Below are positions 1,482-34,481 of a DNA stretch of 64,000 nucleotides, piece after piece; the stretch's first letter is position 1; each line of letters opens with the position of its first letter. Both the position numbers and the translations under genes were made by a program. The stretch comes from Thermoanaerobaculia bacterium (GTDB taxonomy: Bacteria > Acidobacteriota > Thermoanaerobaculia > Multivoradales > JAHEKO01). Location: contig JBHHWO010000002.1 in NCBI GenBank assembly GCA_046756565.1, positions 1,141 through 65,140 of the forward strand, read 5' to 3'. The notes beneath the pieces were generated by a model that had not been told where the DNA came from, did no database searches, and was given only the letters and a program-made list of their open reading frames with translations.

Positions 1482-1592
1482 TCAGGCCGCCCAAGCTATC
1501 GCACGCAGCCGCTACGGTTGGACCATCGGTAGAGGGGGCGGCGGCGGCGATCTGGTCCTGCCACCGGATTTCGTCGGTAAGATAGCCGTTCA

Positions 1593-4480
<2,888 letters not shown>

Positions 4481-4484
<4 letters not shown>

Positions 4485-5350
4485 ATCACCTCGCAACCTG
4501 GTCGAAGGACTCCGGCGGAAGCGCATCCGAATCCGCCTGGACCGGTGGTATCGACCTCGTCTACGCCGAGGGCTCGAGCCTACAGACCAACATCGATCTC
4601 AATCGCACCTACACGACCGATGAGTTCGGCCGGCCGATGGCCTCACCGGTACGGCCGGATCCGACGACCAATGTGTCTCTGACACGACAGTCGATCGGTG
4701 AGTCCGAGTATCAGGCCATCACATTCAAGGTGAACCGGCGTTTCACAGGCAGGTACCAGATGCAGGCCCACTACACCCTCGCCGACGACAAGGACACCGA
4801 CTCCAATGAGAGAAGCGCGACCAGTTCGACAGCTTCCTTCGGCGGCGCCGACCGCTCGCTCTGGAACCCACGCTACGACTGGGGTCACTCCGAGAAGGAC
4901 ATCGAGAACCGTTTGGTCATCAGCGGTGTCTATCTCCTGCCCTGGGACTTCAAGATCTCGGGTATCGTCGAGCATGGTTCCGGTGTTCCGTACAACCCCA
5001 CCGACCGCGGTGTGGATTTTGCGTACTGCGGCTTCACATCGCTCGGCTTCGACTGCGTCGATGCCCGCCCGGTAGACGCCAATGGCAACGTCCTCCAACG
5101 CAACTCGTTTCGCAACGAGTCGGTGCAACGCATGGACCTGAGGCTGTCCAAGTTCTTCGAGTTCGGCAACGACAAGAGCGTCGACGTCTTCCTCGAGGTC
5201 TTCAACCTCTTCGACGACCAGGCTTTCGTGGTCTGCAACAGTTTCAGCTGCGACCGGCGCCGCGATCCCGAGAATGCCCAGTTTGGCTTGGCCTCAGGCC
5301 GCTTGACCCAGCCCCAGATCTACCAGATTGGAGGTCGATTCACCTTCTGA
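4481..5350 (+). pseudogene. C-terminal ~290 aa of a TonB-dependent receptor-like OM barrel, no plug or N-terminal barrel (remnant)
   Basis: Alternating beta-strand pattern ending in YQIGGRFTF (terminal Phe, OM beta-signal). No signal peptide, TonB box or plug. ATG at 4481 overlaps the kinase stop (ATGA). The same frame is closed upstream of 4451. Confidence 0.5.
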
Positions 5351-5550
5351 CCCGGCGCCACGGCCTGGACGACGACGGACCAGGTTCCGGCCGGTACCCC
5401 CAGAAGGTCGGGTCAGCCACCTGCCACCCGGAGCTCGTCCTCCCCCTTGCTCCCACCACCGAGAGGTAGGCACGGCCGTCCGCCCTGCCGGGGCGCGAGC
5501 TATACTCGAGACGGTCGCCAGGTCGTTGCGTCGACCGAGCCGTCCGGATC

Positions 5551-6060
5551 ATGTCCATCGTCTCCAAGCGCGTCCGCTACGCTCTTCACGGTCTCGCCTT
5601 TCTAGCGAGGCACGACGAGTCGGAGGATCCTGTTCCGTTCGAGATGATCCTCGCCTACCTGCGGGCATATTCGCAGCGTTTGACGCTCTCTCCCAGCTAC
5701 ATCGCGAAAGTTTTCCAGGATGTCTCGAGAGCCGGCCTCACCGTTGCCGTTCCGGGACCGCACGGCGGCTACCGGTTGGCCGCACCCGCGGAGAAGCTGT
5801 CCCTGATCAAGGTGGTCGAGGCTCTGGACGGACCTCTGGGGTCGGAATGCTGTCTGCTCTCGGTGGGCAACTGCACCCAGCAAGGACGGTGTGGCGTGCG
5901 CCTCCTCGTTCAGCAGGCGGAGAGCGCCTACTACGATTTCTTCGCCGGAGAAACCGTGGCTTCTCTGTCGAAAAAGATGACATTCCCCGATCTGGATCGG
6001 CCGGTTGGAGAAAACCCTCCGCCGATCCAAATCGGTGAATCAGGCCCTTCAAACAGTTGA
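5551..6060 (+). CDS. Rrf2-family transcriptional regulator with Cys cluster (IscR/NsrR-like)
   Basis: MSIVSKRVRYALHGLAFLARH is a typical Rrf2 wHTH start. Cys motif CCLLSVGNCTQQGRC (C-x6-C-x5-C) sits where Rrf2 Fe-S ligands lie. Confidence 0.85.
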   Translation: MSIVSKRVRYALHGLAFLARHDESEDPVPFEMILAYLRAYSQRLTLSPSYIAKVFQDVSRAGLTVAVPGPHGGYRLAAPAEKLSLIKVVEALDGPLGSECCLLSVGNCTQQGRCGVRLLVQQAESAYYDFFAGETVASLSKKMTFPDLDRPVGENPPPIQIGESGPSNS

Positions 6061-6132
6061 ACTAAGCGGCGCGATCCCAGTCGCGGTCAGGGGCTCTTCG
6101 AGGTCCATCAGGTTCCGGCGACGCCTCGAATC

Positions 6133-6147
6133 TGGCACGAGGATTGC
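6133..6147 (+). promoter_or_regulatory. Sigma-54 (-24/-12) promoter TGGCAC-GAGGA-TTGC
   Basis: Read directly: tcTGGCACgaggaTTGCgg. Exact GG-N10-GC spacing, about 55-70 nt upstream of the first start candidates (6205/6220) of the 8-gene operon. Confidence 0.6.
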
Positions 6148-6204
6148 GGAAAGGCTGTGCGTCTGCTTGATTTACGATATTAACTATCGATAATATCCCC
6201 GTTC

Positions 6205-7950
6205 TTGGAGATCGGTCGGTTGTCGAGACCTGCAAGACAGGAAAGAGGTCGGTTGTTGGATACCCTCGGGTGCCAGGAGCTTTGTTGCGTCCTGGTGCTG
6301 GGAGTGGCGGTGGCCACTCTGGCGGGCTGTGAGCGTCCCGAGAGCGAGAGCGTTGCGGTTGGAGTCCTGGCCCTGGCCAACCTTCCGCCGCTGCCGCCCG
6401 TTGGCAGTGAAGGCGTCTTCGCCGACGTGACCCTGGCTGCCGGGATCACCGCTGAGCATCATCTGCCCGGTGATGACTTCGTCAACATCGTCGACTCGCT
6501 GGGTTCGGGGGCGGCGTTCGCCGATCTCGACGGTGACGACTGGCTCGACCTGATCGTGGTCGGAGGCCCGAGCCTGCCGGGTGAGGCCGACTGGCCGCCA
6601 GATCACAGCGGCGTCCGTGTGTTTCGCAATCTGCGCGACGGCCGGTTCGCGGATGTGACCACCGACTCGGGCATCGCCGCGAATGAGACCGCCATCGCGG
6701 TCGCCGTTGCGGACATCGACGGGGACGGAGATCGCGACGTCTATCTCGTAGACCGTGGTCCGAATCGGCTCTACCGCAACCGCGGAGACGCCACCTTCGA
6801 GATAGCCACCGACGAGGCCGGTCTGGGGCATCCGGGATTCGGAGTCAGTGCGGTTTTCTTCGATATGGACGGCGACTACGATCTCGATCTCTATCTGGGC
6901 AACTACCTGGAGTTTGACGAGAGGCAGAGCGCATTCTTCGCGCCCGACGGATTTCCCGGCCCGCTCAGCTATGAGGCGCAACCCGATGTGCTCTACGAGA
7001 ATCTCGGGAACGGCCGGTTCGTGGACGTATCGGAACCGGCCGGCATAGCGGATCTTCGCGGCCGCACGATGAGCGTAGCGGCCCTCGACTTCGATAACGA
7101 CACCGACACCGATCTGTTCGTTGCCAGCGACGCGACCGAGAACTATCTGCTGCTCAACGACGGTAGTGGCAGATTCGACGAGGCGGGCTTCGAGGCTGGC
7201 GTCGCGATGGGCGAGAACGGGGAGCAAACCGGCGCCATGGCGGTGGCGGTGGGCGACGTGGACGGAGACGGCCAGCTCGATTTGGCCGTCTCGGACACCG
7301 CCTACGGTGCCCTCTATCGCAGAGTCGGAGACGCGCTGTTTGCCGACGACGTGATGCTTTCAGGCTTGGCTCCGCTGTGTGGTCAGTACGTGAGTTGGGG
7401 CCAGAACCTCCTCGACTATGACAATGACGGCGACCTCGACCTATTTGTCGTCAACGGTGATCTGCATCACGTCGTGGGTTGGGAGGACATGCTGCTGCGC
7501 AACGACGGCGGAGCCCGGTTTCGCGATGCTTCTCTGGAGGGCGGCTTCTACTTCGAAGGTCGCGAGGTGGGCCGCAGCTCGATCGTGGGCGACTACGACA
7601 ACGATGGTGATCTCGACCTGTTTGTTACCGCCGTCAACGGTCGCCACTTTCTGCTCAGGAACGACTCGCCGCCTGGGCCCTCGTGGATCAGCGTGGATCT
7701 GTCCGGCGATCGTGTGCGGGACCCGTTCGGTGCTCGAATCGAGATCCAGGCCGGTGATCGAGCCTGGGCTTCCGAATACCGGTTCAATTCGGCCTACCTC
7801 GGCCAGAGCGACTCGAGGGTCCACTTTGGTCTCGGCGAAGGTGTCGATGTCGTCGACCGGCTGAGGGTGATCTGGCCGGACGGTACGGAGGTCGAGCTCA
7901 CCCGTGTCGAGACCGGGCGCACGCATCGCATCGAGCGAGGAGCCGCCTAG
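6205..7950 (+). CDS. CRTAC1-family protein (FG-GAP/VCBS repeats + ASPIC/UnbV C-terminal domain), lipoprotein
   Basis: Lipobox VATLAGC. Repeated DxDxDGDxD FG-GAP/VCBS calcium loops. C-terminal GARIEIQAGDRAWASEYRFNSAYLGQSDSRVHFGLG is UnbV_ASPIC-like. Start uncertain (TTG 6205 or TTG 6220 after GGAGA). Confidence 0.85.
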   Translation: MEIGRLSRPARQERGRLLDTLGCQELCCVLVLGVAVATLAGCERPESESVAVGVLALANLPPLPPVGSEGVFADVTLAAGITAEHHLPGDDFVNIVDSLGSGAAFADLDGDDWLDLIVVGGPSLPGEADWPPDHSGVRVFRNLRDGRFADVTTDSGIAANETAIAVAVADIDGDGDRDVYLVDRGPNRLYRNRGDATFEIATDEAGLGHPGFGVSAVFFDMDGDYDLDLYLGNYLEFDERQSAFFAPDGFPGPLSYEAQPDVLYENLGNGRFVDVSEPAGIADLRGRTMSVAALDFDNDTDTDLFVASDATENYLLLNDGSGRFDEAGFEAGVAMGENGEQTGAMAVAVGDVDGDGQLDLAVSDTAYGALYRRVGDALFADDVMLSGLAPLCGQYVSWGQNLLDYDNDGDLDLFVVNGDLHHVVGWEDMLLRNDGGARFRDASLEGGFYFEGREVGRSSIVGDYDNDGDLDLFVTAVNGRHFLLRNDSPPGPSWISVDLSGDRVRDPFGARIEIQAGDRAWASEYRFNSAYLGQSDSRVHFGLGEGVDVVDRLRVIWPDGTEVELTRVETGRTHRIERGAA

Positions 7951-7952
7951 CC

Positions 7953-9425
7953 GTGCGTGCTCGAACTCGAGAGTTGCTCGTTTCGGGTTGCGCCCTGCTC
8001 GGGCTGCTCACCGTTTTCGGTATTGGCTGCGTCGAGCAACCGGTGTCGGGAGAGCTGCCGGAGGCTCTCGCGGTGGTCGTGACAGAGCTACCGGCCGGCG
8101 CCTCGCCCGAGGCTTTGAACTCGGATCCAGCTCCGGACTCGCGCTACCCTGAAGGAAGCCGGATCGCACTGATAGTCGAAGGACAGCCGGGAACCGGCCG
8201 CATTCTCTCAGGAGGGTTCGTTGCCGCCGGCGCGCCGGACGTTTCCTCCTCGGGCGACGCGGTGCTATTCACGGCGCGGCGCTCGGCGGCGGACCCGTGG
8301 ACGATCTATCGCAGTGATCTCCAGCGCCGCAGCCGCCCTCAAGCGATCACCCAACTGGACACGGATTGCACGGATCCGGCCTTCTTGGCCGGTGGCCGGG
8401 CCGTGTTCAGTTGCCTTGCACCGGTTCCCGGAAGAGAGCAGGAAGGAGACAAGACCTGGGCGCTCCATACGGCTCGGCTGGACGGATCGCACTTCGAGCG
8501 GATCACCTACGGGCTACTTGCCGCCTCCGGGCCCACGCAGCTTCCGGACGGGAGAGTCCTCTTCTCCATGTGGCAAGAAGCTGGAGCGGGCCGCTCGCAA
8601 AGTTCGACCGCGCTATTCACGGTCAATGCGGACGGGACCCTTCTCCAGTCGTTCTCCGGTCATCATGGAGGGCCGGTTCTCAAACAACGCCCGCGCTTGG
8701 CTGACCAGGGCCGCGTCGTGTTTCTCGGCGCAGAACCGCCAGCCTACGAGCCGTTGTTGCTCGGAGTCGAAATGGCGCGCCCCCAGAGTCCGATGGAATC
8801 GTATGACCCTCCTGTGACTCCGCTGAGCGCCGAGCCTCTCGGTGGTGGAGAAATGCTGCTCGTCGGAAGGGACGAGCGTGTTGGGGCGCCCGGGAGCTCA
8901 GGGCTGTACCGATGGCGGCCAGGTGATTCGCCGATTGCGATTCGTGGACACGAGAAGTGGGACGTTGTCGAGGCCGTCCCTCGTCGACCGGCTCCCGAGC
9001 CTAAGGACCGACCGTCGGCGGTGGTCCGCACTCGCCTCACAGGAATCTTGCTCTGCTACGACGCGCAGCGATCCGACGGCGTCGTCGGGCCTTCCGACTC
9101 CAGTTCGCCGGCGCGTCGAGTGGTTCTGGAAACCCTGAATGGCGGGGCCCGTTCGTCGGCGATGGTATTGGGTGTGGACAACCTCGACGATGACGGCTCC
9201 TTTCACCTCGAAGTGCCTGCCGATCGTCCTCTACGAGTGCGCACTCTCGACGAGGCCGGCGCTGAGGTAGCGACCTCGGGTTGGTTCTGGCTGCGCCCGG
9301 GAGAGGTTCGGTCCTGCTTCGGTTGCCATGAAAGCCGCGAGGTGGCTCCGGTCAACCGGCCGATTGCGGCTCTCGCGCACGGCCCCTCACGGCTCGGCGT
9401 TCTCGGGGAGGCCGGCTCGCGATGA
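7953..9425 (+). CDS. Secreted propeller-like protein with C-terminal single CxxCH module (HzsA-middle-domain-like, from memory)
   Basis: GTG 2 nt after the upstream stop. Signal/lipoprotein-like LLGLLTVFGIGC. C-terminus GSFHLEVPADRPLRVRTLDEAGAEVATSGWFWLRPGEVRSCFGCHESREVAPVN. Confidence 0.65.
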   Translation: MRARTRELLVSGCALLGLLTVFGIGCVEQPVSGELPEALAVVVTELPAGASPEALNSDPAPDSRYPEGSRIALIVEGQPGTGRILSGGFVAAGAPDVSSSGDAVLFTARRSAADPWTIYRSDLQRRSRPQAITQLDTDCTDPAFLAGGRAVFSCLAPVPGREQEGDKTWALHTARLDGSHFERITYGLLAASGPTQLPDGRVLFSMWQEAGAGRSQSSTALFTVNADGTLLQSFSGHHGGPVLKQRPRLADQGRVVFLGAEPPAYEPLLLGVEMARPQSPMESYDPPVTPLSAEPLGGGEMLLVGRDERVGAPGSSGLYRWRPGDSPIAIRGHEKWDVVEAVPRRPAPEPKDRPSAVVRTRLTGILLCYDAQRSDGVVGPSDSSSPARRVVLETLNGGARSSAMVLGVDNLDDDGSFHLEVPADRPLRVRTLDEAGAEVATSGWFWLRPGEVRSCFGCHESREVAPVNRPIAALAHGPSRLGVLGEAGSR

Positions 9426-11395
9426 ACCGTCTCGGCGACGCCAGGAGCGCCGTCCGTCTCTACGCGTCGGTCGGGATCTCGCTGGTCGTGCTCGCGTCCT
9501 TCGGTGGACTCGGAATCCTGTCGCTGTATGGCGCTCACTACCGTCAGGTGACGGGAAGAGACGAACGGCCGGAGGTGGGGTGCTTCTACTGTCACCGGCG
9601 GGTCCAAGAGCCGAGTCGCCGTGGCGACCCGGGCGAGCCTGTGAGGTATCCGTCGCCCGCAGGGATCGCCGTTTCGGCCGATGGAGCGACACTCTGGGTC
9701 GCGGCCGAGGGTACCGATCGACTGCTCGAAATAGATCTCGAAAGCCGGACAGTTACTCGCGCCATCGTCATTCCAGGCGGCCCCTTTGGAGTAGCTCGGT
9801 CTGCTGGGGGCGATCGGCTGGCCGTCACGGCTCGCGCCGCTGACCGGGTTGCGATCGTCGATACCACGGAGTTTCGGGTACTCCGGTGGGTGGCGGCTGG
9901 AAGAGAGCCCTTGGGAGTCGAAGTGGCCGCCGGCGGGAGCGAGGTCTTCGTGGCCAACGGCGGTTCCAACGACGTGCTCCTGGCCTCGGTGACGTCTGAG
10001 ACCGAGCGCCACCGTCTGGGAGCGGGAATGGAGCCGTACGCGATCGATCTGGCCGCCGAAACGGGCCTTCTGGCGGTCGCCAACCGGCGCGTACGGCCTC
10101 GGCCCGAGCCGGCTCTGCCGGAGTCGGAGCTGACCGTGATCGATACGGTCTCAGGGCGAGTGCAAGCCCGGCATGCTCTTCGTAGCGCTCATCTCGCCGA
10201 GGGAGTGGCGATCTCGGCCGATGGGTCCTTTGTCCTGGTGCCGGTGGTCAGAGCCCGGAACTACCTACCCACCACTCAGGTGGCGCGGGGAGGACTGATG
10301 AATAGTGCTCTAGCCTTCGTCGAGACCCACTCCGGAGGCCGGGTTGTCCAATTCCCACTCGACGAAGTGAACGCCTACTACGCCGATCCGGCCGGAGTCG
10401 CTTTGAGCTCCGATAACCGACGGGCGTACGTCGCTCACGCAGGAGCCAGTGTGGTGTCGGTGGTCGACCTTTCGGTTTTGAGAAAGATGGTCTCGAGCTT
10501 GGACGCTGCGGCGTTGGACGAGCTCGGCGACGACCTCGGCGCGGCGGCCGGCTATGTGCTGGCGAGGATTCCGACTTCCCACGGTCCGAGCGCGCTTACG
10601 CTGTCGGCCGACGGCCGCAGGCTCTTCGTAGCCGAGCGTCTCGCCGACACGATCGCCGTCATCGATACCGACGAGCTGGAGGTGATCGGGCGCATCGACC
10701 TGGGCGGGCCGGGAGAGCTGACCGCGGTACGGCGTGGCGAGCGAGTGTTTCACGACGCTTCGGCGAGCTTTCAGGGGCAGTTTTCATGCCGCTCCTGCCA
10801 TCCCGACGGGCACACTGACGGCCTCAACTGGGATTTCGAGATCGACGGCGTCGGACGCAATCGGCTGGACACCCGGTCGCTGCGTGGCATTCGCGATACC
10901 GCGCCGTTCAAGTGGAACGGCAAGAATCCCGACCTGGCCACGCAGTGTGGTCCTCGCTTCGCGCGGGTGTTGACGCGTTCCGAGCCCTTCAGCCCGCAGC
11001 GACTCGAGGACCTCGTGACCTATATCGAGTCGCTTCGGCTGTCGGCCAAGGCCGGCCCCGATGCTCGGGCGCCGGCCATTGCCCGCGGTCGGCAGCTCTT
11101 TTTTCGGAGCACCACGATCTCTGGAGAGACGATTCCCGTTCGCCAGCGTTGTGACACCTGTCATCGCCCACCGCTGTTTACCGATCGGTTGATGACCGAC
11201 GTGGGCACCGGCGGGGTGTTCGACACGCCTCACCTGCTCGATATCGGGCTGTCACCGCCCTATCTGCACGATGGTCGCGCACAGACGCTCGAGGAGATCT
11301 GGACCGTCCACAGCCCGGAGGACACGCATGGAGCAACGAACGACATGAGCAAGGCGGAGCTCAACGACCTCGTGGTCTTCTTGAAGAGTCTGTAG
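9422..11395 (+). CDS. YVTN-type beta-propeller fused to di-haem cytochrome c peroxidase (CCP/MauG-like), plus an extra N-terminal CxxCH
   Basis: ATGA overlap with the upstream gene. N-terminal TM helix, then CFYCH. Repeated propeller blades (LWVAAEGTDRLLEIDL, LAVTARAADRVAIVD, LFVAERLADTIAVIDT). CCP block FSCRSCHPDGHTDGLNWDF...RCDTCHRPPLFTD...PPYLHDGRAQTLEE. Confidence 0.85.
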   Translation: MNRLGDARSAVRLYASVGISLVVLASFGGLGILSLYGAHYRQVTGRDERPEVGCFYCHRRVQEPSRRGDPGEPVRYPSPAGIAVSADGATLWVAAEGTDRLLEIDLESRTVTRAIVIPGGPFGVARSAGGDRLAVTARAADRVAIVDTTEFRVLRWVAAGREPLGVEVAAGGSEVFVANGGSNDVLLASVTSETERHRLGAGMEPYAIDLAAETGLLAVANRRVRPRPEPALPESELTVIDTVSGRVQARHALRSAHLAEGVAISADGSFVLVPVVRARNYLPTTQVARGGLMNSALAFVETHSGGRVVQFPLDEVNAYYADPAGVALSSDNRRAYVAHAGASVVSVVDLSVLRKMVSSLDAAALDELGDDLGAAAGYVLARIPTSHGPSALTLSADGRRLFVAERLADTIAVIDTDELEVIGRIDLGGPGELTAVRRGERVFHDASASFQGQFSCRSCHPDGHTDGLNWDFEIDGVGRNRLDTRSLRGIRDTAPFKWNGKNPDLATQCGPRFARVLTRSEPFSPQRLEDLVTYIESLRLSAKAGPDARAPAIARGRQLFFRSTTISGETIPVRQRCDTCHRPPLFTDRLMTDVGTGGVFDTPHLLDIGLSPPYLHDGRAQTLEEIWTVHSPEDTHGATNDMSKAELNDLVVFLKSL

Positions 11396-11397
11396 TC

Positions 11398-12522
11398 ATG
11401 CGCGAATTCCCTCTCAGCTCAACTCTGCTGTTCGTTTCGATGGCGATTGCGATACCGGTTGCTGCCGAAGCAGCCAGCGACCCTTTCTTCAGCCGCTGGG
11501 AGACGTTCGGAGAGGCCGACGGGCTGCCGTCCGAAAAAGTGACCGCCGTGGCAATCGACGGGAATCGGATCTGGGTGGGTACCGATGCCGGACTGGCCCT
11601 GCTGGAGAACGGGCGAATCGAGGTGACCGGCGTCGAAGACGGCCTGCCGTTCCCGGTAGTTTCGGCTCTGGCCGTCGATCGGACGACCGGTGATCTGTGG
11701 ATCGGCACGCAAGGCGGCCTCGCCCGGCTCAGCGCCGGCCGGATAGATCGCTTTACCCAACTCGACAGCGGGCTTGCGAACGACGTCGTCTACGGCGTTG
11801 CTGCCCGGGACGGAGTGGTGTGGGTGGCGACCGCCGCGGGCCTCAACAGCTATTCCGCGGCCACCGACAGCTGGGAGATCTTCGATGTTTCGAACACGCT
11901 CATGCACGAGCCCTGGTGCTATGCGGTGACCTTCGGCGGCGAAGACGTCTACGTAGCGGTCTGGGGCGGCGGAGTCATCGTGCGCGAGCACGACACGGGT
12001 CGATTCCGTGAGCACCGTGATCCGGATGGAGAAATGGAGATCGATCTGTTCCCTGATGACGGACTAGTGCACGACGTGACGTCATCGATTGCCTGGAAAG
12101 ACGGAGTGATGTGGGCCGGAACATACTTCGGCTTGAGCCGATACGAAGGTCGGCGATGGAAATCCTTCAGCCGGCACGACAGCGGCCTCGCGAGTGACTT
12201 CATCAACTTCGTCCAGACCGGCGACGATGAAGTCTGGATCGCGACCGACCGCGGTCTCAGCCGATTCGACTCGATCGACTGGCACACCTGGACACGAAGA
12301 GATGCCGGCGCCTTTGAGCTCGAGGTCACGAAAGCGGACGGGACGGAAGAAACAGTCACAGTGGCGGGAGGTCCCGCGAGTAACTACATCCTCGGTCTGG
12401 CCGTGGATGGCAGGGACATATGGCTGGCCACGGCGGCCGGCTTGACCCATGGGGTCGGGCACCGGGCTGAACGCCGGAGTGCTGCCCCGCAATCTGAACA
12501 CAAGACAGGAGCACCACAATGA
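11398..12522 (+). CDS. Secreted two-component-regulator-propeller (Reg_prop) repeat protein, no kinase domain
   Basis: Signal peptide LLFVSMAIAIPVAAEA. Repeats of the type DGLPSEKVTAVAIDGNRIWVGTDAGLALL and DLWIGTQGGLARL. Confidence 0.7.
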   Translation: MREFPLSSTLLFVSMAIAIPVAAEAASDPFFSRWETFGEADGLPSEKVTAVAIDGNRIWVGTDAGLALLENGRIEVTGVEDGLPFPVVSALAVDRTTGDLWIGTQGGLARLSAGRIDRFTQLDSGLANDVVYGVAARDGVVWVATAAGLNSYSAATDSWEIFDVSNTLMHEPWCYAVTFGGEDVYVAVWGGGVIVREHDTGRFREHRDPDGEMEIDLFPDDGLVHDVTSSIAWKDGVMWAGTYFGLSRYEGRRWKSFSRHDSGLASDFINFVQTGDDEVWIATDRGLSRFDSIDWHTWTRRDAGAFELEVTKADGTEETVTVAGGPASNYILGLAVDGRDIWLATAAGLTHGVGHRAERRSAAPQSEHKTGAPQ

Positions 12523-13124
12523 GTCAACTGACCCTGGAGCGAGAACGGATTGACACCGCGGCCGGCACTTCCCTGAGCATCGATGCCATGGCCGAGCTCG
12601 ATGCGATGGGGCTCGGCCCGTCACACGGTCTCGAGTCGGCGAACAGGGCGGGAATTGATCCGGTGGCGGAGCGCCGGCTCTATCCCAAGAGGGCGATTAC
12701 CTCGCTCGAGGTTCTGAACGAGGCCTACGACTACGCTCTGCCCTCTTCGTTCAGTCGCGGCATGCGCGTGGAGTTGGGTGAGGCTGCGATCCTCTATCTG
12801 TCGGGTACGGCCAGCATCGACGAAGACGGCCGGACGCTCTATAGCGGCGACTTCGAGGCCCAGTGTCTTCGGACGTTTCGCAACCTGACATCGCTATTGG
12901 CCTCCGAGTCCGCGAGCTGGCACGATGTCGTGCGCACGACCTGCTATCTCAGGGATATCGAGCGCGACTACGACACCTTCAATCGAGTGCGCACCCTGTT
13001 CATGACGGCGCTCGGGCTGGATCCTGTGCCGGCGAGCACCGGAATCCAAGCGCGGCTGTGCCGGTCGGATCTGCTGGTCGAGATCGAGGCCATCGCCATC
13101 GTGCCGCGCGACGCAGGCGACTGA
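12519..13124 (+). CDS. RidA/YjgF/L-PSP-fold protein (possibly chorismatase-like)
   Basis: ATGA overlap upstream. LYLSGTASIDEDG...FEAQCLRTFRNLTSLL...VVRTTCYLRDI...PASTGIQARLCRSDLLVEIEAIAIV matches the RidA-family core. An extra ~80-aa N-terminal extension is present. Confidence 0.7.
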   Translation: MSQLTLERERIDTAAGTSLSIDAMAELDAMGLGPSHGLESANRAGIDPVAERRLYPKRAITSLEVLNEAYDYALPSSFSRGMRVELGEAAILYLSGTASIDEDGRTLYSGDFEAQCLRTFRNLTSLLASESASWHDVVRTTCYLRDIERDYDTFNRVRTLFMTALGLDPVPASTGIQARLCRSDLLVEIEAIAIVPRDAGD

Positions 13125-14431
13125 TGAGCGGACGGTCGTATCTGCTCCTGGTTCTGGCGCTGCTGATGGCCTGGCCGCCGGTGCTGGCGGCGGCCGGCGA
13201 GAATGTCTCACCAGAGCCGGCGGCGGACCGGTCGACGCCGGAGAAAGACGCGCCCGGCCGGGCCGGATACGGGAAAACGCCCGAGCGACTGAAGCCGTAC
13301 AGCAGGAGCGCCGAGCCCTACCGCAGCTTCTATCTCGAGCCACTGCGTTTCTTCGGCCCGGGAAGGGACGTTGCGGAACCGGTGGGGTCGGAATCCGTTC
13401 GCATCGGTCTGATCGCCCCGCTCGAAGAGGGAATCGATGCCGGCTTGGGACGCAACCTTCGCGATGGAGTCGCGCTGGCGGTTTCGGAGGCCAACGCCTC
13501 CGGTGGCTATCGTGGCCTCCCCTTCGAGGTCATCGAGCGCAACGATCAGGCGATCTGGGGCAGCTCCAGCAATACTCTCGTCGACCTCGCGTACCTGGAG
13601 CGAGTCTGGGCGGTGATCGGCTCGGTCGATTCCAACAGCACTCACGTGGCCCTGCGTGCGGCGCTCAAGGCCGAAGTCATGATCGTGAATGTCGGCAGCA
13701 CCGATCCGACCGTGACCGAGACCGGAATCCCCTGGCTGGTGCGCTGTACACCGGACGACCGCCAGACCGGGTATCTGCTGGCTTTGCATCTCTTCGAGGA
13801 TCTCGGCTTCTCACGGGTGGCCGTCCTCCGTTCCACGGATCGCTATGGCCGTTTCGGCGTCGCCGAGTTCCGGGACGCGGCGCGACGCCTCGGTCGGCCG
13901 TTGCCGCTGGAGATTCTTTTCGAGTCGGTCCAGCGCGATTTCGCTGCCGAGCTCGAGCGCATCGAGGCGGCGGACATCGACGCCGTCGTCCTTTGGACGA
14001 AGGCGGAGCCGGCGGCTCTGATCGTCCGTCAGATGCGCGCTCGGGGGATGCGCCAGCTGGTCGCGGGCCCTGATCGCTTGGCGTCGCCGGGCTTTCTCGA
14101 GCTGGCGGGAGAGTCGGCGGAAGGCGTGATCGCGACCCGCTGGATCGATCCGGAGCGGCAAGACGCCGCGTGGATCGATTTCGAGCGGCGCTTCTCGGAG
14201 CGCTTCACCCGCCCGCCCGACGCCTTTTCGGCGTATGGCTACGACGCCGCCAACTTGGTGATCGATGCGGTCCGCGCGGCCGGTCTCAACAGGCTCCGTA
14301 TTCGCGATCGACTGATGGGCATCAGGTCCGTGACCGGCGTGGCCGGCACGATCGTCTTCGACGAGACCTCGAATAACATCGTCCAGCCGTACCTGGTCAG
14401 TGTCAAAGGAGGCCGGTTTGCGCCTCTCTAA
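13124..14431 (+). CDS. LivK-like (Peripla_BP_6) periplasmic substrate-binding protein, orphan (no permease/ATPase nearby)
   Basis: The track ORF starts at 12863, but an internal ATG at 13124 overlaps the upstream stop and gives signal peptide MSGRSYLLLVLALLMAWPPVLAAAG. Body VRIGLIAPLEEG...AVSEANASGGYRGLPFEVIERND...WAVIGSVDS is typical of the branched-chain amino-acid/amide binding family. Confidence 0.8.
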   Translation: MSGRSYLLLVLALLMAWPPVLAAAGENVSPEPAADRSTPEKDAPGRAGYGKTPERLKPYSRSAEPYRSFYLEPLRFFGPGRDVAEPVGSESVRIGLIAPLEEGIDAGLGRNLRDGVALAVSEANASGGYRGLPFEVIERNDQAIWGSSSNTLVDLAYLERVWAVIGSVDSNSTHVALRAALKAEVMIVNVGSTDPTVTETGIPWLVRCTPDDRQTGYLLALHLFEDLGFSRVAVLRSTDRYGRFGVAEFRDAARRLGRPLPLEILFESVQRDFAAELERIEAADIDAVVLWTKAEPAALIVRQMRARGMRQLVAGPDRLASPGFLELAGESAEGVIATRWIDPERQDAAWIDFERRFSERFTRPPDAFSAYGYDAANLVIDAVRAAGLNRLRIRDRLMGIRSVTGVAGTIVFDETSNNIVQPYLVSVKGGRFAPL

Positions 14432-15440
14432 ACGGCGGATAGCGGGAGTACTGGTGACCGGAAGCCTGGTCTGGGCTCCGGTGGCTCGTGGGGCGTCGAG
14501 TGCTCTGCGGATCGGACTGTTGAGCCAGTCCAGCGGCTCGGGAGCCGAAGTTCTCGTCGGCGCGGAGCGCGCGATCGCCGAGGCCAACGAGGCCGGGGGC
14601 GTCGGGGGGCGCCCGGTCGAGTTAGTGGTCCTACCGCGGTCACGCCCTTGGCTCGGAGTCGCCGGACCAACGGCCCGCTTGGTCGCCGAGCAGACACCGG
14701 CGGCTTTGATCGGGCCTCTTGACGGCTCGGCTGCGCATGTGGGCGCCCAGATCGCGACCAGGACGCAAACACCCTTGCTCACGCTTGCCTCCGAAAAGAG
14801 CCTGACCGAGGCCTTCAGCCCATGGGTGTTTCAGGGCGTGCCGAATGACGCCCGGCAGGCGCGCAGGCTCCTGCTCGATGCGCTCTCCGAGCCTCGTGGA
14901 AAGCAAGCCGCGATCGTGGTGCCCGCTGGACGGACCGGCACGGAGCGGCGGGCCGCACTCGAAACCGTCTGCCGAGATCTCGGTCTGCGATACGAGACCC
15001 TGACCGGCCGTGACTCCGTGCTTCGTTCATCGACCGACGTCCTGCTTCTGTGGCTCGAGCCCGATGACGCATCCAACTGGGTGGCCCGGCAGGCCAGGGA
15101 ACGGCTGCCGGATCGGATCCTGGTGCCGCACTGGCTGGCCGACGAGGTCTTTCTAGAAGCCCTACCGCCCTGGGTCACCGGATTGTCGGGGCCGCAGCTG
15201 CGACCGGCCGCTGGCGCCAGCACGACCAGCGCGCTGGCCTACGACCTAACGAGTCTGGCGATAGCCGCCCTGCGACGAGCCGGCCCCGACCGGCTGCGAG
15301 TCCCTGAGTTTCTGGCCAACGCCGAGCCATACTCGGGGCTCTCTGGCACCTTCTCTTTCGATCGGCGGGGCGCCCGGGTTGGCACCTACCCGGTGGTTGC
15401 CGTGGAACGGGCGAACACTGCCAGGAGAACACACAGATGA
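14418..15440 (+). CDS. Second LivK-like periplasmic substrate-binding protein, orphan
   Basis: TTG at 14418 lies 5 nt after AAGGAGG (the track gives GTG 14400). Signal peptide. LRIGLLSQSSG...AIAEANEAGGVGGRPVELVVLPR...ALIGPLDGSAAH. Confidence 0.7.
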   Translation: MRLSKRRIAGVLVTGSLVWAPVARGASSALRIGLLSQSSGSGAEVLVGAERAIAEANEAGGVGGRPVELVVLPRSRPWLGVAGPTARLVAEQTPAALIGPLDGSAAHVGAQIATRTQTPLLTLASEKSLTEAFSPWVFQGVPNDARQARRLLLDALSEPRGKQAAIVVPAGRTGTERRAALETVCRDLGLRYETLTGRDSVLRSSTDVLLLWLEPDDASNWVARQARERLPDRILVPHWLADEVFLEALPPWVTGLSGPQLRPAAGASTTSALAYDLTSLAIAALRRAGPDRLRVPEFLANAEPYSGLSGTFSFDRRGARVGTYPVVAVERANTARRTHR

Positions 15441-16300
15441 GCGCTTTCGCCGACAGCCTACCGGAGCTCAGCGTTCTGAGACGCTGCTGGCCCGACTACA
15501 GAGAAACCTCCAAGACTCATCGGTTCATGGTGCACGGCGTCGAGCTCGGACGACCGCGGCCGGTGATCATCGCGGGCCCGTGCGCCGTCGAGAGCTTCGA
15601 GCAGACCCTGGCCACGGGTCAAGCCGTTAGACAAGCGGGTGGAGAGTTGCTGCGCGGCGGAGTCTTCAAGCCGCGCTCGAGTCCCCATTCGTTCCAAGGG
15701 CTGGGCGCCGAAGGGCTCGAGATCCTGGCGGAGGTCCGGCGCCAGACCGGCCTGGGGGTCGTGACCGAGGTCATGGATCCGGGGCTGGTCGAACTGGCAA
15801 GCGAGTTCGCCGACATGATCCAGATCGGTTCGCGATCGATGCAGAGCTTCCCGCTTCTTCGAGAGGTTGGGAAGACGCGAACTCCGGTCCTGCTGAAGCG
15901 CGGCTGGAGCGCCACACTCGAGGAGTGGCTCTGCGCCGCCGAGTACATCGCCTCGGAGGGTAACCGGAACATTGCCCTGTGCGAACGCGGCATCCGGACA
16001 TCGTGCCAGTCCCCCTACGCCCGCAATCTGCTCGATCTGAATGTCATCGAGCCGACACGGGAAGCAACTCCGCTGCCTCTGATCGTCGATCCTTCGCACT
16101 CGACGGGTCGATGGCAATGGGTCGAAGCGATGAGCCGTGGGGCCCTGGCCGTGGGCGCCCATGGTCTGCTGGTCGAGGCACTCGGCCCAGGAATCGATCG
16201 CGAGGGACTGCGCTGCGACGCGGAGCAGGGTGTACCCCCAGAGGTGCTCGCGCGGATCGTCAAGGCCGCGGCCACGTTCGGGGAACCGATGCTCGCGTAG
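15437..16300 (+). CDS. aroF: 3-deoxy-7-phosphoheptulonate (DAHP) synthase, type I-beta
   Basis: PVIIAGPCAVES, LRGGVFKPRSSPHSFQGLG, QIGSRSMQSF, PVLLKRG, CERGIRT, IVDPSHSTG. The metal-ligand Cys/His/Glu/Asp positions appear retained. ATGA overlap upstream. Confidence 0.85.
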   Translation: MSAFADSLPELSVLRRCWPDYRETSKTHRFMVHGVELGRPRPVIIAGPCAVESFEQTLATGQAVRQAGGELLRGGVFKPRSSPHSFQGLGAEGLEILAEVRRQTGLGVVTEVMDPGLVELASEFADMIQIGSRSMQSFPLLREVGKTRTPVLLKRGWSATLEEWLCAAEYIASEGNRNIALCERGIRTSCQSPYARNLLDLNVIEPTREATPLPLIVDPSHSTGRWQWVEAMSRGALAVGAHGLLVEALGPGIDREGLRCDAEQGVPPEVLARIVKAAATFGEPMLA

Positions 16301-31079: not shown

Positions 31080-31094
31080 GCAAAGCGAGTGCCA
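31080..31094 (-). promoter_or_regulatory. Sigma-54 (-24/-12) promoter TGGCAC-TCGCT-TTGC(T)
   Basis: Plus strand reads gcaaagcgagtgcca. Reverse complement is TGGCACTCGCTTTGC with exact spacing, about 50 nt upstream of the NHL gene start (31029). Confidence 0.65.
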
Positions 31095-31237: not shown

Positions 31238-32684
<1,447 letters not shown>

Positions 32685-32692
<8 letters not shown>

Positions 32693-34481
32693 CCAAGCGA
32701 TCCTTGTGCTCCGGTAATCGAATCTCGAAACTCGCTCCACCGGAGTCGTTGTTGGTTGCGCGAATCTCTCCACCAAAAGACTCGACAATGCGCTTCGACA
32801 CGGCGAGCCCGAGCCCAGTGCCTCGGCCGATCTCTTTGGTGGTAAAGAACGGCTCGAACAGCCGCTCCGAGTCGCCTTTCGGCAAGCCGGTGCCAGTGTC
32901 TGTGATTCTGAGAATCAGGTCCGCCTCTGTCCCATTGTGCTGGCAAGTCGTCTGAATCTTCAGACTTCCGCCTTTTGGCATGGCATCGATCGCGTTATTG
33001 ATCAGATTCAGGATCAGCTGGAGAGCGTCGTTCGGGTCGCCGACAGAGACGCACGGCCGCGCGTCGAAGTCGGTCTCGAGGTTGACCGAGGCATGCTTCA
33101 TTCTCGGCTGCGTGAGTAGAATGGCCTCGTCGAGAATCAGCTTCAAATCCACCGGCAGCCGGATTCCTTCGGGCTTGCGCGAAAAGCTCAAAAGGCTGCG
33201 CACCGACTGATCGATGCGGCGGCATTGGCGTTCCATCATCTCGAGGTCGTCTCGAAGCTCCCGCGGAACGTCCCGGTCGTTGCTGAATTCCCGTCGGTGA
33301 GTAATCGTCGTCAGCAGGATTCCCACCGGATTGTTGATCTGGTGCGCGATTCCTGCGGCGAGTTGTCCGACGACGGCCATCTTGTCGGCCTGGCGGAGCT
33401 GCTCTTCGACTTCCTTGCTCTCAGTGACATCCAGGATGAGCTGGAGAAAGTGGTCGGCTTCACCGACCGCGTCGTTCGTGCTTTCAGGAGTCGTGATTAT
33501 CTGAAAGGTCCGGCGTTCGCCGTCCAACCCAGTGGCGACGTGTTCGCAATGTACGGGACCGGTAGATTTCCCGGCGCTTGCCTCGAACGGGCAGTCGACG
33601 CAGGTCACGCAGTCGCGGCAGAAACGTTCTGGAGCACTGGCGCCGACAAGACCATCTTCGCCTCCGAACCAGCACTCGGCCATCTCGTTGGCCCAGAGAA
33701 TGCGACCTTGCGAATCGGCCAGGATCAGACCGGCTCCGACCGCGTTTACGATTCGCTCGAGCTTGCTTTTCTCGACAACCAGCTCGTCGGCTGAGCGCCG
33801 CAGCTCGTTCTCTAGCCTGCGCTGGGTTCGGTTGATCCGGCGGACCACGCCGACCATCGCGACGTATAGAAGCGCTCCAAGGCCGAGTGAGGCGCTCCAG
33901 ACGAGCACAGCGGCCTGTCGAATCTGCTTGAAGAGCTTCCTGGGATAGCGATAGATCTCGACGACCCCGACCACTGAACCTTGCTCGAAGATCGGGATGT
34001 ACGACTCCATGATCTTCTCGAACCTGCCTCGCTCGAAGAGGTGCTCCGTGCGTTCCGGAGTCTCGATGACGCTCTCGACCCTCCCTGAAAGAGAACGCGC
34101 GAGATGCATGTTGTCGGGAAAACGAACGCCGAGCAGCTCCGGCTCGTCCGACCAGATGATTCGGCCCTCCAGGTTGTACACCTTGATCCTGAAGACCTCG
34201 TCCAGTGCAAGTGCCTTCAAGAAGCGGTTTCCCAGTCGCGGATCGCGGATCGCGTCCTTCACCTGAAAGAACCCGGTCCCGAACTCGGTGGCGATCACGT
34301 GGCGAACGAACGCGGCGGTCTGCCCTTGATCGTTGCTCTCCACTGCACGATGGATCGTTTTCTCGAGCAGCCAACCGAACAAGACCGCGCAGCCGAGTAC
34401 AGACACGAGAGCCGTAACCGCGAAGCGCTGGGCGTGATCCAATCGCCGATAGCGAGCGATGAGAGAAGGCCGGTCAGTCAA
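32685..34481 (-). CDS. Sensor histidine kinase (2 TM, extracytoplasmic domain, Cys-rich PAS, HisKA, HATPase_c)
   Basis: TM helices near aa 22-40 and 192-212. PAS-like KLERIVNAVGAGLILADSQGRILWAN with FCRDCVTCVDCP...HCEH. H-box AAGIAHQINNP. N/G boxes LINNAIDAM, TDTGTGL, GTGLGL. Confidence 0.9.

What the first reader, a model, noticed from the sequence alone, without database searches (positions are those of the whole stretch)
6133..6147. Perfect -24/-12 sigma-54 element in front of the beta-propeller/haem/DAHP-synthase operon
- tcTGGCACgaggaTTGCgg matches the sigma-54 consensus core TGGCAC-N5-TTGC exactly.
- It lies 55-70 nt upstream of the first start candidates.
- The leader between it and the start is the most AT-rich stretch nearby (tttacgatattaactatcgataatatcc) and contains the palindrome TATCGATA.
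- No enhancer-binding protein is encoded next to this operon. The nearest is 25 kb away, heading the convergent cytochrome train. This suggests one regulon.
Basis: seen in the sequence. Interest (0 to 1): 0.6.

Follow-up and report, generated by a model that had tools for sequence, protein, structure and literature searches.

The report
Genuine sigma-54 promoter, activator encoded elsewhere

Summary
TGGCACgaggaTTGC is at 6133-6147(+), intergenic, and points at the ASPIC/HZS-alpha-like/haem operon. The genome has one rpoN and about 17 activator (EBP) genes.

**New support for a real promoter:**
- Two palindromes, TCCAAATCGGTGAA (6026-6039) and TTCAAACAGTTGAA (6048-6061), lie 72-107 nt upstream.
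- Only one other such tandem exists in the 4.8-Mb genome. It sits 82 nt upstream of another exact sigma-54 consensus.
- The combined module gives 12 hits in 9 of 45 family genomes, against 1 for a reversed-pattern control.
- The orthologous operon of another genus keeps both parts.

**The AT-rich leader** holds GATATTA-N8-TAATATC (6176-6197). This palindrome is unique in the genome. It recurs in orthologous operons next to the same Rrf2 gene, so it is a probable Rrf2 operator.

**Limits and corrections:**
- Eight more distant orthologous loci have no sigma-54 motif at the operon promoter; five show sigma-70-like hexamers there.
- The window's TTGC aligns with their -35 hexamer.
- The "one regulon" idea is not supported. 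The promoter beside the activator at 31238-32788 lacks these sites. That activator has an ortholog in only 1 of the other 44 family genomes, while the module occurs in 7 genomes without it.
- A core kinase-activator operon on another contig is a better candidate.
- No transcript data could be obtained.

The parts
5551..6060 (+). Rrf2-family regulator gene with a Cys triad (CC-x6-C-x5-C), the likely local repressor
   Evidence: Pfam Rrf2, E 4.7e-23. NCBIfam places it in the rrf2 superfamily only. Orthologs at 51-60% identity sit upstream of the same operon in G008, L036, L039 and L040.
6026..6039 (.). Distal upstream activator site, TCCAAATCGGTGAA (TTCA-N6-TGAA with 1 mismatch)
   Evidence: Part of a 14+8+14 tandem with the same layout as in G008.
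6048..6061 (.). Proximal upstream activator site, TTCAAACAGTTGAA (perfect TTCA-N6-TGAA). It overlaps the Rrf2 stop codon and its centre is 80 bp from the -24 GG.
   Evidence: It is one of only 2 of the genome's 46 perfect sites that are followed 72-82 nt later by an exact sigma-54 consensus. The family-wide module scan gave 12 hits against 1 control hit.
6133..6147 (+). Sigma-54 -24/-12 element, TGGCACgaggaTTGC
   Evidence: The G008 ortholog has TGGTATgaggtTTGC at the colinear place.
6157..6161 (+). Predicted transcription start, about 12 nt after the GC (inferred, not observed)
   Evidence: Inference from the known geometry of sigma-54 promoters.
6167..6194 (+). Sigma-70-like hexamers, TTGATT-N16-GATAAT, overlapping the palindrome. 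TTGATT occupies the slot of the TATATT -10 of orthologous promoters.
   Evidence: Consensus scan, 9 of 12. Alignment A2.
6176..6197 (.). Inverted repeat GATATTA-N8-TAATATC, a probable Rrf2 operator at about +17 to +38 of the predicted transcript
   Evidence: It is the only perfect GATATT-N10-AATATC in the genome. The motif is conserved in G008, L036 and L040, with a looser AT-rich version in L039, all next to Rrf2. The leader RNA folds no better than shuffles, z = +1.33. No Rfam match.
6253..7950 (+). First gene of the operon: FG-GAP/ASPIC-UnbV (CRTAC1-like) lipoprotein
   Evidence: Pfam. Database gene call of 565 aa.
7953..16300 (+). Rest of the operon: HZS_alpha-like haem protein, propeller fused to a CCP/MauG di-haem domain, Reg_prop propeller, RidA, two Peripla_BP_6 binding proteins, and a type I-beta DAHP synthase
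   Evidence: Pfam and NCBIfam. The first four genes (ASPIC, HZS_alpha-like, propeller-CCP, Reg_prop) recur in that order, as far as each contig extends, in many metagenome-assembled genomes.
31080..31094 (-). Second exact sigma-54 element, TGGCACtcgctTTGC, 51 nt before the NHL-propeller/cytochrome operon. It is not part of the same module.
   Evidence: Conserved after the orthologous activator in G008. No TTCA-N6-TGAA lies upstream.
31238..34481 (-). Histidine kinase (32685-34481) and NtrC-family response-regulator activator (31238-32788), the probable regulators of the second promoter only
   Evidence: Pfam. An ortholog exists only in G008 among the other 44 family genomes.

Best explanation
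6133-6147 is a functional sigma-54 (RpoN) promoter for the operon that starts at about 6253.

Proposed mechanism:
- RNA polymerase with sigma-54 binds the GG/GC elements as a closed complex.
- An NtrC-family activator binds as a dimer pair to the two TTCA-N6-TGAA palindromes at 6026-6061, whose centres lie about 105 and 127 bp before the predicted start near 6159.
- The activator loops to the polymerase and uses ATP to open the promoter.
- The transcript has a leader of about 95 nt. Its DNA carries the palindrome GATATTA-N8-TAATATC (6176-6197).
- This palindrome is most likely the operator of the Rrf2 (Fe-S type) regulator encoded just upstream. Bound there, at +17 to +38, Rrf2 would block transcription.
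- The operon would therefore need both a signal through a distant activator and release of the local repressor.

Which activator:
- It is encoded elsewhere in the genome.
- It is probably not the one at 31238-32788.
- The best candidate is the core kinase-activator pair on contig C20 (kinase 6268-9057, activator 9054-10436). Its own sigma-54 promoter carries similar sites.

What is shown and what is inferred:
- Shown: the motifs, their genome-wide rarity, their co-occurrence and their conservation.
- Inferred: binding, the transcription start, repression by Rrf2 and the identity of the activator.

Approximate sub-confidences:
- Functional sigma-54 promoter with these upstream sites: 0.8.
- Palindrome is the Rrf2 operator: 0.6.
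- C20 activator is the cognate one: 0.4.
- Window activator is not the cognate one: 0.85.
For: Sigma-54 machinery and the consensus:
- The genome has one rpoN above the curated cut-off and about 17 Sigma54_activat genes.
- Of 17 exact TGGCAC-N5-TTGC sites in 4.8 Mb, at least 7 are intergenic against an 11% background, and 6 of those lie 25-58 nt before an ORF. The reversed motif has 0 of 10 intergenic.
- In a position-weight-matrix scan, 26 of the top 45 sites are intergenic, and this site ranks 26th.

Upstream activator sites:
- The tandem of two TTCA-N6-TGAA-type palindromes (at most 1 mismatch in total) occurs only twice in the genome.
- One is here. The other is at C58:9568-9604, 82 nt before the exact consensus TGGCACagtgcTTGC, ahead of a TonB-receptor-like gene.
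- My rough mononucleotide estimate, not a tool result, is about 0.02-0.2 such tandems by chance.
- The pattern TTCA-N6-TGAA-N60-90-TGGYAY-N5-TTGC gives 12 forward hits in 9 of 45 family genomes, against 1 for the backwards control.

Conservation in another genus:
- G008 has the same Rrf2-then-operon order.
- It has two perfect palindromes in the same 14+8+14 layout, followed by TGGTATgaggtTTGC.
- It has the same 28-nt distance from TTGC to GATATT.
- The core is 12 of 15 identical, while the next 19 nt are 3 of 19 identical.

The operator:
- Evidence is listed under the part at 6176-6197.
- The half-sites are conserved as sequence without compensatory changes. This fits a protein-binding site rather than an RNA hairpin.

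The activator:
- No activator gene lies near any of the module copies.
- The C20 activator has orthologs at 67-93% identity in about 40 of 45 genomes.
- Its operon has a conserved sigma-54 promoter with TTCA-N6-TGAA-like sites upstream in G000, G008 (a perfect TTCAAATCTTTGAA), G058 and G022.
Against: - No transcript evidence exists.
- Eight more distant orthologous loci (L033-L041, two of them near-duplicate pairs) show no sigma-54 element at the operon promoter. Five of them (L036-L040) carry sigma-70-like hexamers there; L033/L041 and L034/L035 show no clear promoter of either type. The operon does not intrinsically need sigma-54.
- The window's TTGC is colinear with the -35 hexamer (TTGCGG) of such a promoter in L040. 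Four of the ten consensus bases may therefore be inherited for another reason.
- A sigma-70-like TTGATT-N16-GATAAT lies 20 nt downstream and could drive the operon alone.
- The -12 element is followed by GG rather than the preferred T or A.
- The window's upstream sites lie in the last codons of Rrf2, although in G008 they are fully intergenic.
- E. coli mapping shows many sigma-54 binding sites that lie inside genes (PMC4591121, abstract only, seen). A consensus match alone is therefore not proof of a productive promoter.
- The candidate C20 activator is a core gene, so its presence in all module-bearing genomes does not discriminate.
Confidence: 0.78

Rival explanations
1. The operon is transcribed only from a sigma-70 promoter in the AT-rich leader (TTGATT-N16-GATAAT, 6167-6194), repressed by Rrf2 as in the orthologous operons. 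On this view the sigma-54 match is non-productive or a remnant.
For: - The sigma-70-like site was found in the scan.
- Five orthologous operons have TTGnnn-N16/17-TATATT, or a TATAAT-like -10, followed by the palindrome and have no sigma-54 motif.
- TTGC aligns with their -35 hexamer.
Against: - The ancestral -10 slot reads TTGATT in the window, so the key A at position 2 is lost.
- TGGCAC sits at exactly the right spacing. My estimate for that by chance at a fixed position is about 3e-4.
- The tandem TTCA-N6-TGAA sites, seen elsewhere only ahead of sigma-54 consensus sites, have no role under this reading.
- G008 keeps the sigma-54 core while neighbouring bases have diverged.
- The two promoters could also coexist, which would not contradict the main explanation.
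Confidence: 0.12
2. One reading: the activator at 31238-32692 drives both this promoter and the one at 31080-31094, forming one regulon.
For: - It is the only activator in the window, and both promoters are exact consensus matches.
- Among 45 family genomes, only G000 and G008 have an ortholog of this activator.
- Among the 41 genomes searched for the HZS_alpha-like gene, only G000 and G008 have a close ortholog (46% identity) preceded by this promoter. The two therefore co-occur.
Against: - No shared motif was found upstream of the two promoters.
- The second promoter has its own inverted repeat, conserved in G008, and no TTCA-N6-TGAA.
- The TTCA-N6-TGAA/sigma-54 module is present in G003, G019, G022, G023, G057, G058 and G059, which lack that activator at E<=1e-120.
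- The genome has about 16 other activators.
Confidence: 0.08
3. The match is a chance occurrence, and the operon is read through from the Rrf2 gene's own promoter.
For: - No terminator-like site lies between the Rrf2 gene and the operon.
- 10 of the 17 exact genome matches fall inside my ORF calls, so the motif does occur without promoter context.
Against: - The motif is intergenic, correctly oriented, conserved in G008 and preceded by the recurring upstream module.
- Orthologous operons without an upstream Rrf2 gene (L034, L037, L038) still carry their own promoter regions.
Confidence: 0.03

Closest known systems
NtrC-type sigma-54 promoters such as enterobacterial glnAp2 (my own knowledge: two strong activator sites about 110 and 140 bp upstream, overlapping the sigma-70 promoter glnAp1)
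   Same: - A GG-N10-GC core.
- Two dimer-sized palindromes about two helical turns apart, 100-130 bp before the start.
- An activator of the response-regulator class.
- A sigma-70-type promoter in the same region.
   Different: - The site sequence is TTCA-N6-TGAA, not TGCACC-N5-GGTGCA.
- The activator is not identified, and none of the genome's activators tested reaches the NtrC equivalog cut-off.
- The target genes are secreted propeller and haem proteins rather than glutamine synthetase.
Rrf2-family repressors with their operators (IscR, NsrR, RsrR, RirA; my own knowledge)
   Same: - A small winged-helix regulator with three clustered cysteines, encoded beside its target.
- An AT-rich inverted repeat of about 22 bp close to the promoter.
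   Different: - The protein reaches only the superfamily model, not the IscR, RirA or SUF-regulator equivalogs.
- The operator sequence GATATT-N10-AATATC is not one of the described boxes as far as I recall.
- Here the operator lies downstream of a sigma-54 start. A full-text search for Rrf2 together with sigma-54 and enhancer-binding protein found no paper.
Sigma-L (sigma-54) promoters of Bacillus subtilis that are also repressed from nearby sites, for example CcpA at the levanase and rocG promoters (my own knowledge, not checked here)
   Same: An activator-dependent sigma-54 promoter combined with a separate repressor site close to or downstream of the core promoter.
   Different: The repressor family is different, the phylum is different, and repression here is not demonstrated.
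The comparative view of sigma-54 as a controller of the cell exterior (PMC3162934, abstract seen)
   Same: The targets of this module are envelope or secreted proteins: a lipoprotein/haem operon, TonB-receptor-like outer-membrane proteins and a subtilase.
   Different: That survey does not describe this module. I did not read beyond its abstract.

Membership tests
sigma-54-dependent promoter | GG and GC doublets exactly 10 bp apart within TGGCAC-N5-TTGC | tested here: met
   Exact match at 6133-6147.
sigma-54-dependent promoter | The organism encodes sigma-54 and AAA+ enhancer-binding activators | tested here: met
   One rpoN at 431.6 bits, above the 277 cut-off. About 17 Sigma54_activat genes.
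sigma-54-dependent promoter | Intergenic, oriented toward a gene, and part of a motif population enriched in such places | tested here: met
   At least 7 of 17 exact sites are intergenic against an 11% background, and 6 are correctly placed. The reversed control has 0 of 10. 26 of the top 45 matrix hits are intergenic.
sigma-54-dependent promoter | Upstream activator sequences about 70-200 bp upstream | tested here: met
   Tandem TTCA-N6-TGAA sites at 6026-6061. The same tandem precedes a second exact promoter on C58. The module recurs in 9 of 45 family genomes, with 12 hits against 1 control hit. Binding itself is inferred.
sigma-54-dependent promoter | Conservation at orthologous loci | tested here: inconclusive
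   Kept in G008, a different genus of the same family. Absent from eight more distant orthologous loci, L033-L041.
sigma-54-dependent promoter | Transcript starts about 12 nt after the GC, and expression needs RpoN and an activator | not testable with these tools
Rrf2 repressor/operator pair | Rrf2 gene adjacent to the regulated operon, conserved across genomes | tested here: met
   Rrf2 lies directly upstream in the window, G008, L036, L039 and L040, with 51-60% identity and a conserved Cys triad. It is divergent in G023 and G059.
Rrf2 repressor/operator pair | Conserved inverted repeat at the promoter that tracks the regulator | tested here: met
   GATATT...TC..AAT is conserved and colinear in four loci, with a looser AT-rich version in L039. 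The perfect form is unique in the genome. There is no RNA-structure signal.
Rrf2 repressor/operator pair | The protein binds the site and represses | not testable with these tools
   This needs a gel-shift or footprint assay and a deletion of the Rrf2 gene.
Regulon of the window's activator (31238-32788) | The same activator-binding motif upstream of both promoters | tested here: not met
   No shared motif beyond weak 10-mers. No TTCA-N6-TGAA (at most 1 mismatch) within 260 nt of the second promoter. That promoter has a different conserved repeat.
Regulon of the window's activator (31238-32788) | The activator is present wherever the module is present | tested here: not met
   An ortholog exists only in G008, while the module is found in 9 genomes.

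The most novel reading that the evidence does not exclude
The promoter records a switch of promoter class. In the ancestor, the operon had a sigma-70 promoter (TTGnnn-N17-TATATT) with an Rrf2 operator just after it. In this family the -35 hexamer TTGC was re-used as the sigma-54 -12 element. A TGGCAC and two activator sites were added, and in this genome the old -10 then decayed. The operon thereby joined a family-wide nutrient-scavenging regulon (TonB-type receptors, a subtilase, and one copy beside a glutamine-synthetase-like gene) run by a core autoregulated kinase-activator pair. It stayed under a local Fe-S Rrf2 repressor that blocks a sigma-54 promoter from downstream.
Probability: 0.3. 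Interest if true: 0.5.

Novelty: new member of a known kind. Interest (0 to 1): 0.33.

Why it matters
- It gives a concrete, testable regulatory map for an uncharacterised but widespread operon of Acidobacteriota-type genomes (FG-GAP lipoprotein, hydrazine-synthase-alpha-like haem protein, propeller-peroxidase fusion).
- The map has two inputs: a distant activator acting through TTCA-N6-TGAA sites, and a local Fe-S-type Rrf2 regulator.
- It defines a previously unlisted activator-site motif and a small regulon in this family.
- It corrects the tempting but unsupported idea that the operon shares a regulator with the neighbouring cytochrome cluster.
- As a promoter, it is an ordinary feature.

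Tried and rejected
- **Shared upstream motif between the two window promoters:** only weak 10-mers with one mismatch were found. Rejected.
- **Known RNA element in the leader:** no Rfam match at E<=1, and the leader folds no better than shuffles. Rejected.
- **An activator encoded next to any copy of the module:** none in the eight relatives checked, and in G000 the nearest activator genes lie 14 kb (C58) and 25 kb (C2) from the two copies.
- **More orthologs through contig scans:**
  - Genome contigs gave only distant relatives at 28-47% identity.
  - Metagenome contigs gave two loci without usable upstream DNA.
  - The protein search plus contig look-ups worked instead.
- **A second Rrf2-type palindrome at C55:14073 (1 mismatch):** it lies 160 nt from a sigma-54 promoter before a MoxR-like operon. 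I judged this coincidental.
- **Weak sigma-54-like 2-mismatch hits in L039 (2233-2247, 2263-2277):** these are at chance level, 6 found against 4.9 expected.
- **Naming the activators:** neither the window activator nor the C20 activator reaches any NCBIfam equivalog cut-off.
- **Literature:** no paper combines Rrf2, sigma-54 and enhancer-binding protein.

Full report
**Observation.** The string tcTGGCACgaggaTTGCgg is at 6133-6147 on the + strand. It lies in the 144-nt gap between an Rrf2 regulator gene (5551-6060) and the first ORF of a long + strand operon. TGGCAC-N5-TTGC occurs twice in the window, where shuffles give 0.12. The second copy, at 31080-31094(-), is 51 nt ahead of an NHL-propeller gene and directly follows a histidine-kinase/activator pair. 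The leader stretch 6167-6196 is the most AT-rich 30-mer of the entire 64-kb window, at 80% AT. The likelier start codon is TTG 6253. It matches the database gene call of 565 aa, has an AAGAGG ribosome-binding site, and opens a lipoprotein signal. The leader is therefore about 95 nt long, not 55-70 nt.

**Is the motif more than chance?**
- The window is contig C2:1141-65140 of a 4.8-Mb, 65% G+C genome. Close homologs are labelled Acidobacteriota.
- The genome has one rpoN above the curated cut-off and about 17 sigma-54 activator genes.
- I built a rough ORF map from codon-position G+C, which puts 89% of the genome as coding. On that map, 17 exact consensus sites exist.
- At least 7 of them are intergenic, and 6 of those lie 25-58 nt ahead of an ORF on the same strand.
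- The motif read backwards gives 10 sites, none intergenic.
- A matrix built from well-placed sites ranks this one 26th, and 26 of the top 45 hits are intergenic.

**Upstream activator sites.**
- In the orthologous locus of G008 (same family, another genus), the operon is again preceded by Rrf2.
- Its intergenic region holds two perfect palindromes, TTCAGATTTTTGAA and TTCATTTTCTTGAA, 8 nt apart. TGGTATgaggtTTGC follows 83 nt later.
- The window has the same 14+8+14 arrangement: TCCAAATCGGTGAA (6026-6039) and TTCAAACAGTTGAA (6048-6061), 71 nt before TGGCAC.
- Genome-wide there are only two such tandems with at most one mismatch. One is this. The other is at C58:9568-9604, 82 nt upstream of another exact consensus (TGGCACagtgcTTGC) in front of a TonB-receptor-like gene.
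- Of 46 perfect single TTCA-N6-TGAA sites, only these two are followed by an exact sigma-54 consensus.
- Across 45 genomes of the family, TTCA-N6-TGAA-N60-90-TGGYAY-N5-TTGC gives 12 hits in 9 genomes, against 1 for the backwards control.
- The genes behind the module, where a family could be assigned, are:
  - TonB-receptor-like outer-membrane proteins (G022 twice; G058, there divergent from a glutamine-synthetase-like gene; and G000 C58).
  - A subtilase (G003).
  - An Rrf2 gene divergent from an HZS_alpha/ASPIC pair (G059; the same layout in G023, read from sequence).
  - This operon (G000, G008).
  - In G019 the ORFs behind the module matched no Pfam family, and G057 was not examined.
- This geometry and recurrence are what activator sites of an NtrC-family protein look like. 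That the sites are bound is an inference.

**The leader palindrome and the older promoter.**
- The operon (ASPIC, HZS_alpha-like, propeller-CCP, Reg_prop and so on) is widespread. About 60 proteins share 55-65% identity with the first gene, and the gene order is the same on all contigs fetched.
- In L036, L039 and L040 an orthologous Rrf2 (51-60% identity, conserved Cys triad) is again directly upstream.
- The promoter region there reads TTGnnn-N16/17-TATATT, followed within a few bases by an AT-rich inverted repeat. This is GATATT...AATATC-like in L036 and L040 and looser in L039.
- None of these loci has a sigma-54 motif at that place.
- MAFFT aligns window, G008 and L040 colinearly: TTGCGG/TTGCTT/TTGCGG, then N17, then TTGATT/TATATT/TATATT, then 3 nt, then GATATT.
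- So the window's -12 TTGC corresponds to the -35 hexamer of a sigma-70 promoter. The -10 slot has lost its consensus in the window. TGGCAC/TGGTAT is present only in window and G008, where L040 has CCGAAA.
- Between window and G008 the 15-bp sigma-54 core is 12 of 15 identical, while the following 19 nt are 3 of 19 identical.
- The perfect palindrome is unique in the genome, as expected for a dedicated local regulator.
- Its half-sites are conserved as sequence rather than by compensatory change. The leader RNA shows no folding signal and no Rfam match. It is therefore best read as the operator of the neighbouring Rrf2 protein.
- A sigma-70-like TTGATT-N16-GATAAT overlapping it remains a possible second promoter.

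**Which activator?**
- None is encoded near any copy of the module. The eight relatives checked have none nearby, and in G000 the nearest activator genes lie 14 kb (C58) and 25 kb (C2) away.
- The window's activator (31238-32788) has an ortholog only in G008 (58% identity) among the other 44 family genomes.
- In G008 it is again followed by an exact sigma-54 promoter.
- Upstream of that promoter, a different inverted repeat (GGTGAGA-N4/5-GTCTCA) is conserved in both genomes. No TTCA-N6-TGAA is found.
- Because the TTCA-N6-TGAA module is present in seven genomes without that activator, it is very unlikely to be the cognate protein.
- A better candidate emerged from the scan of the genome's sigma-54 sites. 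The promoter at C20:6234 (TGGCACggttcCTGC) heads an operon of a 929-aa kinase, a 460-aa NtrC-family activator and an M14-type peptidase. It has similar sites upstream: CTCAAAAACCTGAA and TCCAATATTTTGGA.
- That activator is a core gene of the family, with 67-93% identity in about 40 of 45 genomes.
- Its promoter and TTCA-N6-TGAA-like sites are kept in G008 (including a perfect TTCAAATCTTTGAA), G058 and G022. They are weaker in G004.
- This suggests an autoregulated global activator. It is only a candidate, because a core gene cannot be discriminated by presence or absence.

**Verdict.**
- The single-regulon interpretation is not supported.
- The feature is a new member of a well-known kind.
- The mildly unusual aspects are the overlay on an older sigma-70/Rrf2-operator promoter, and a probable Rrf2 operator downstream of a sigma-54 start. 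I found no description of such a combination.

Noticed in passing
G000 contig C58:9568-9700 (outside the window): A second copy of the tandem TTCA-N6-TGAA sites plus an exact TGGCACagtgcTTGC, ahead of a roughly 1020-aa TonB-receptor-like outer-membrane protein (ATG near 9747, with an AGGAGG ribosome-binding site).
   Followed up: partly
G000 contig C20:6100-13098 (outside the window): A sigma-54 promoter (TGGCACggttcCTGC at 6234) heads a kinase (929 aa), an NtrC-family activator (460 aa) and an M14-like peptidase. TTCA-N6-TGAA-like sites lie upstream. The activator is a core gene of the family and is probably autoregulated.
   Followed up: partly
window 31245-31290 and L055 3100-3130: An inverted repeat, GGTGAGAacagGTCTCACC, lies inside the last codons of the window's activator gene. 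It is conserved as GGTGAGAttgtGTCTCAT 235 nt upstream of the orthologous promoter in G008. It is a candidate binding site for that activator.
   Followed up: partly
L024 3385-3809 (G023) and L056 5153-5979 (G059): In two other genera the Rrf2 gene is divergent from an HZS_alpha-like/ASPIC pair. Rrf2 itself is preceded by TTCAGAAATCTGAA plus TGGCACcgttcTTGC, so the sigma-54 module drives the regulator there.
   Followed up: partly
L058 (G058:C3:611000-619000) 748-5791: The module lies between a divergent glutamine-synthetase-like gene and a TonB-receptor-like gene. This hints that the regulon may respond to nitrogen supply.
   Followed up: no
window 6253-12522 and loci L022, L033-L041: The four-gene core (ASPIC/UnbV lipoprotein, HZS_alpha-like haem protein, propeller-CCP/MauG fusion, Reg_prop propeller) keeps this order, as far as each contig extends, on metagenome contigs. 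Some of these homologs are labelled Acidobacteriota, and first-gene homologs labelled Elusimicrobia, Verrucomicrobia and Phycisphaerae also appear in the protein search. The flanking genes vary.
   Followed up: partly
window 6061-6132: No terminator-like structure lies between the Rrf2 stop and the sigma-54 element, so read-through from the Rrf2 gene into the operon is possible.
   Followed up: no
G000 contig C55:14234-14248: A high-scoring sigma-54 site (TGGCACtgcgcTTGC) lies 34 nt before a MoxR-like ATPase operon with BatA-like downstream genes.
   Followed up: no
window 16329-18011 (-): A second ASPIC/UnbV FG-GAP paralog ends the convergent cytochrome operon. Both operons of the window therefore contain this protein type. 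Both operons and the window's activator have close counterparts only in G008 within the family.
   Followed up: no
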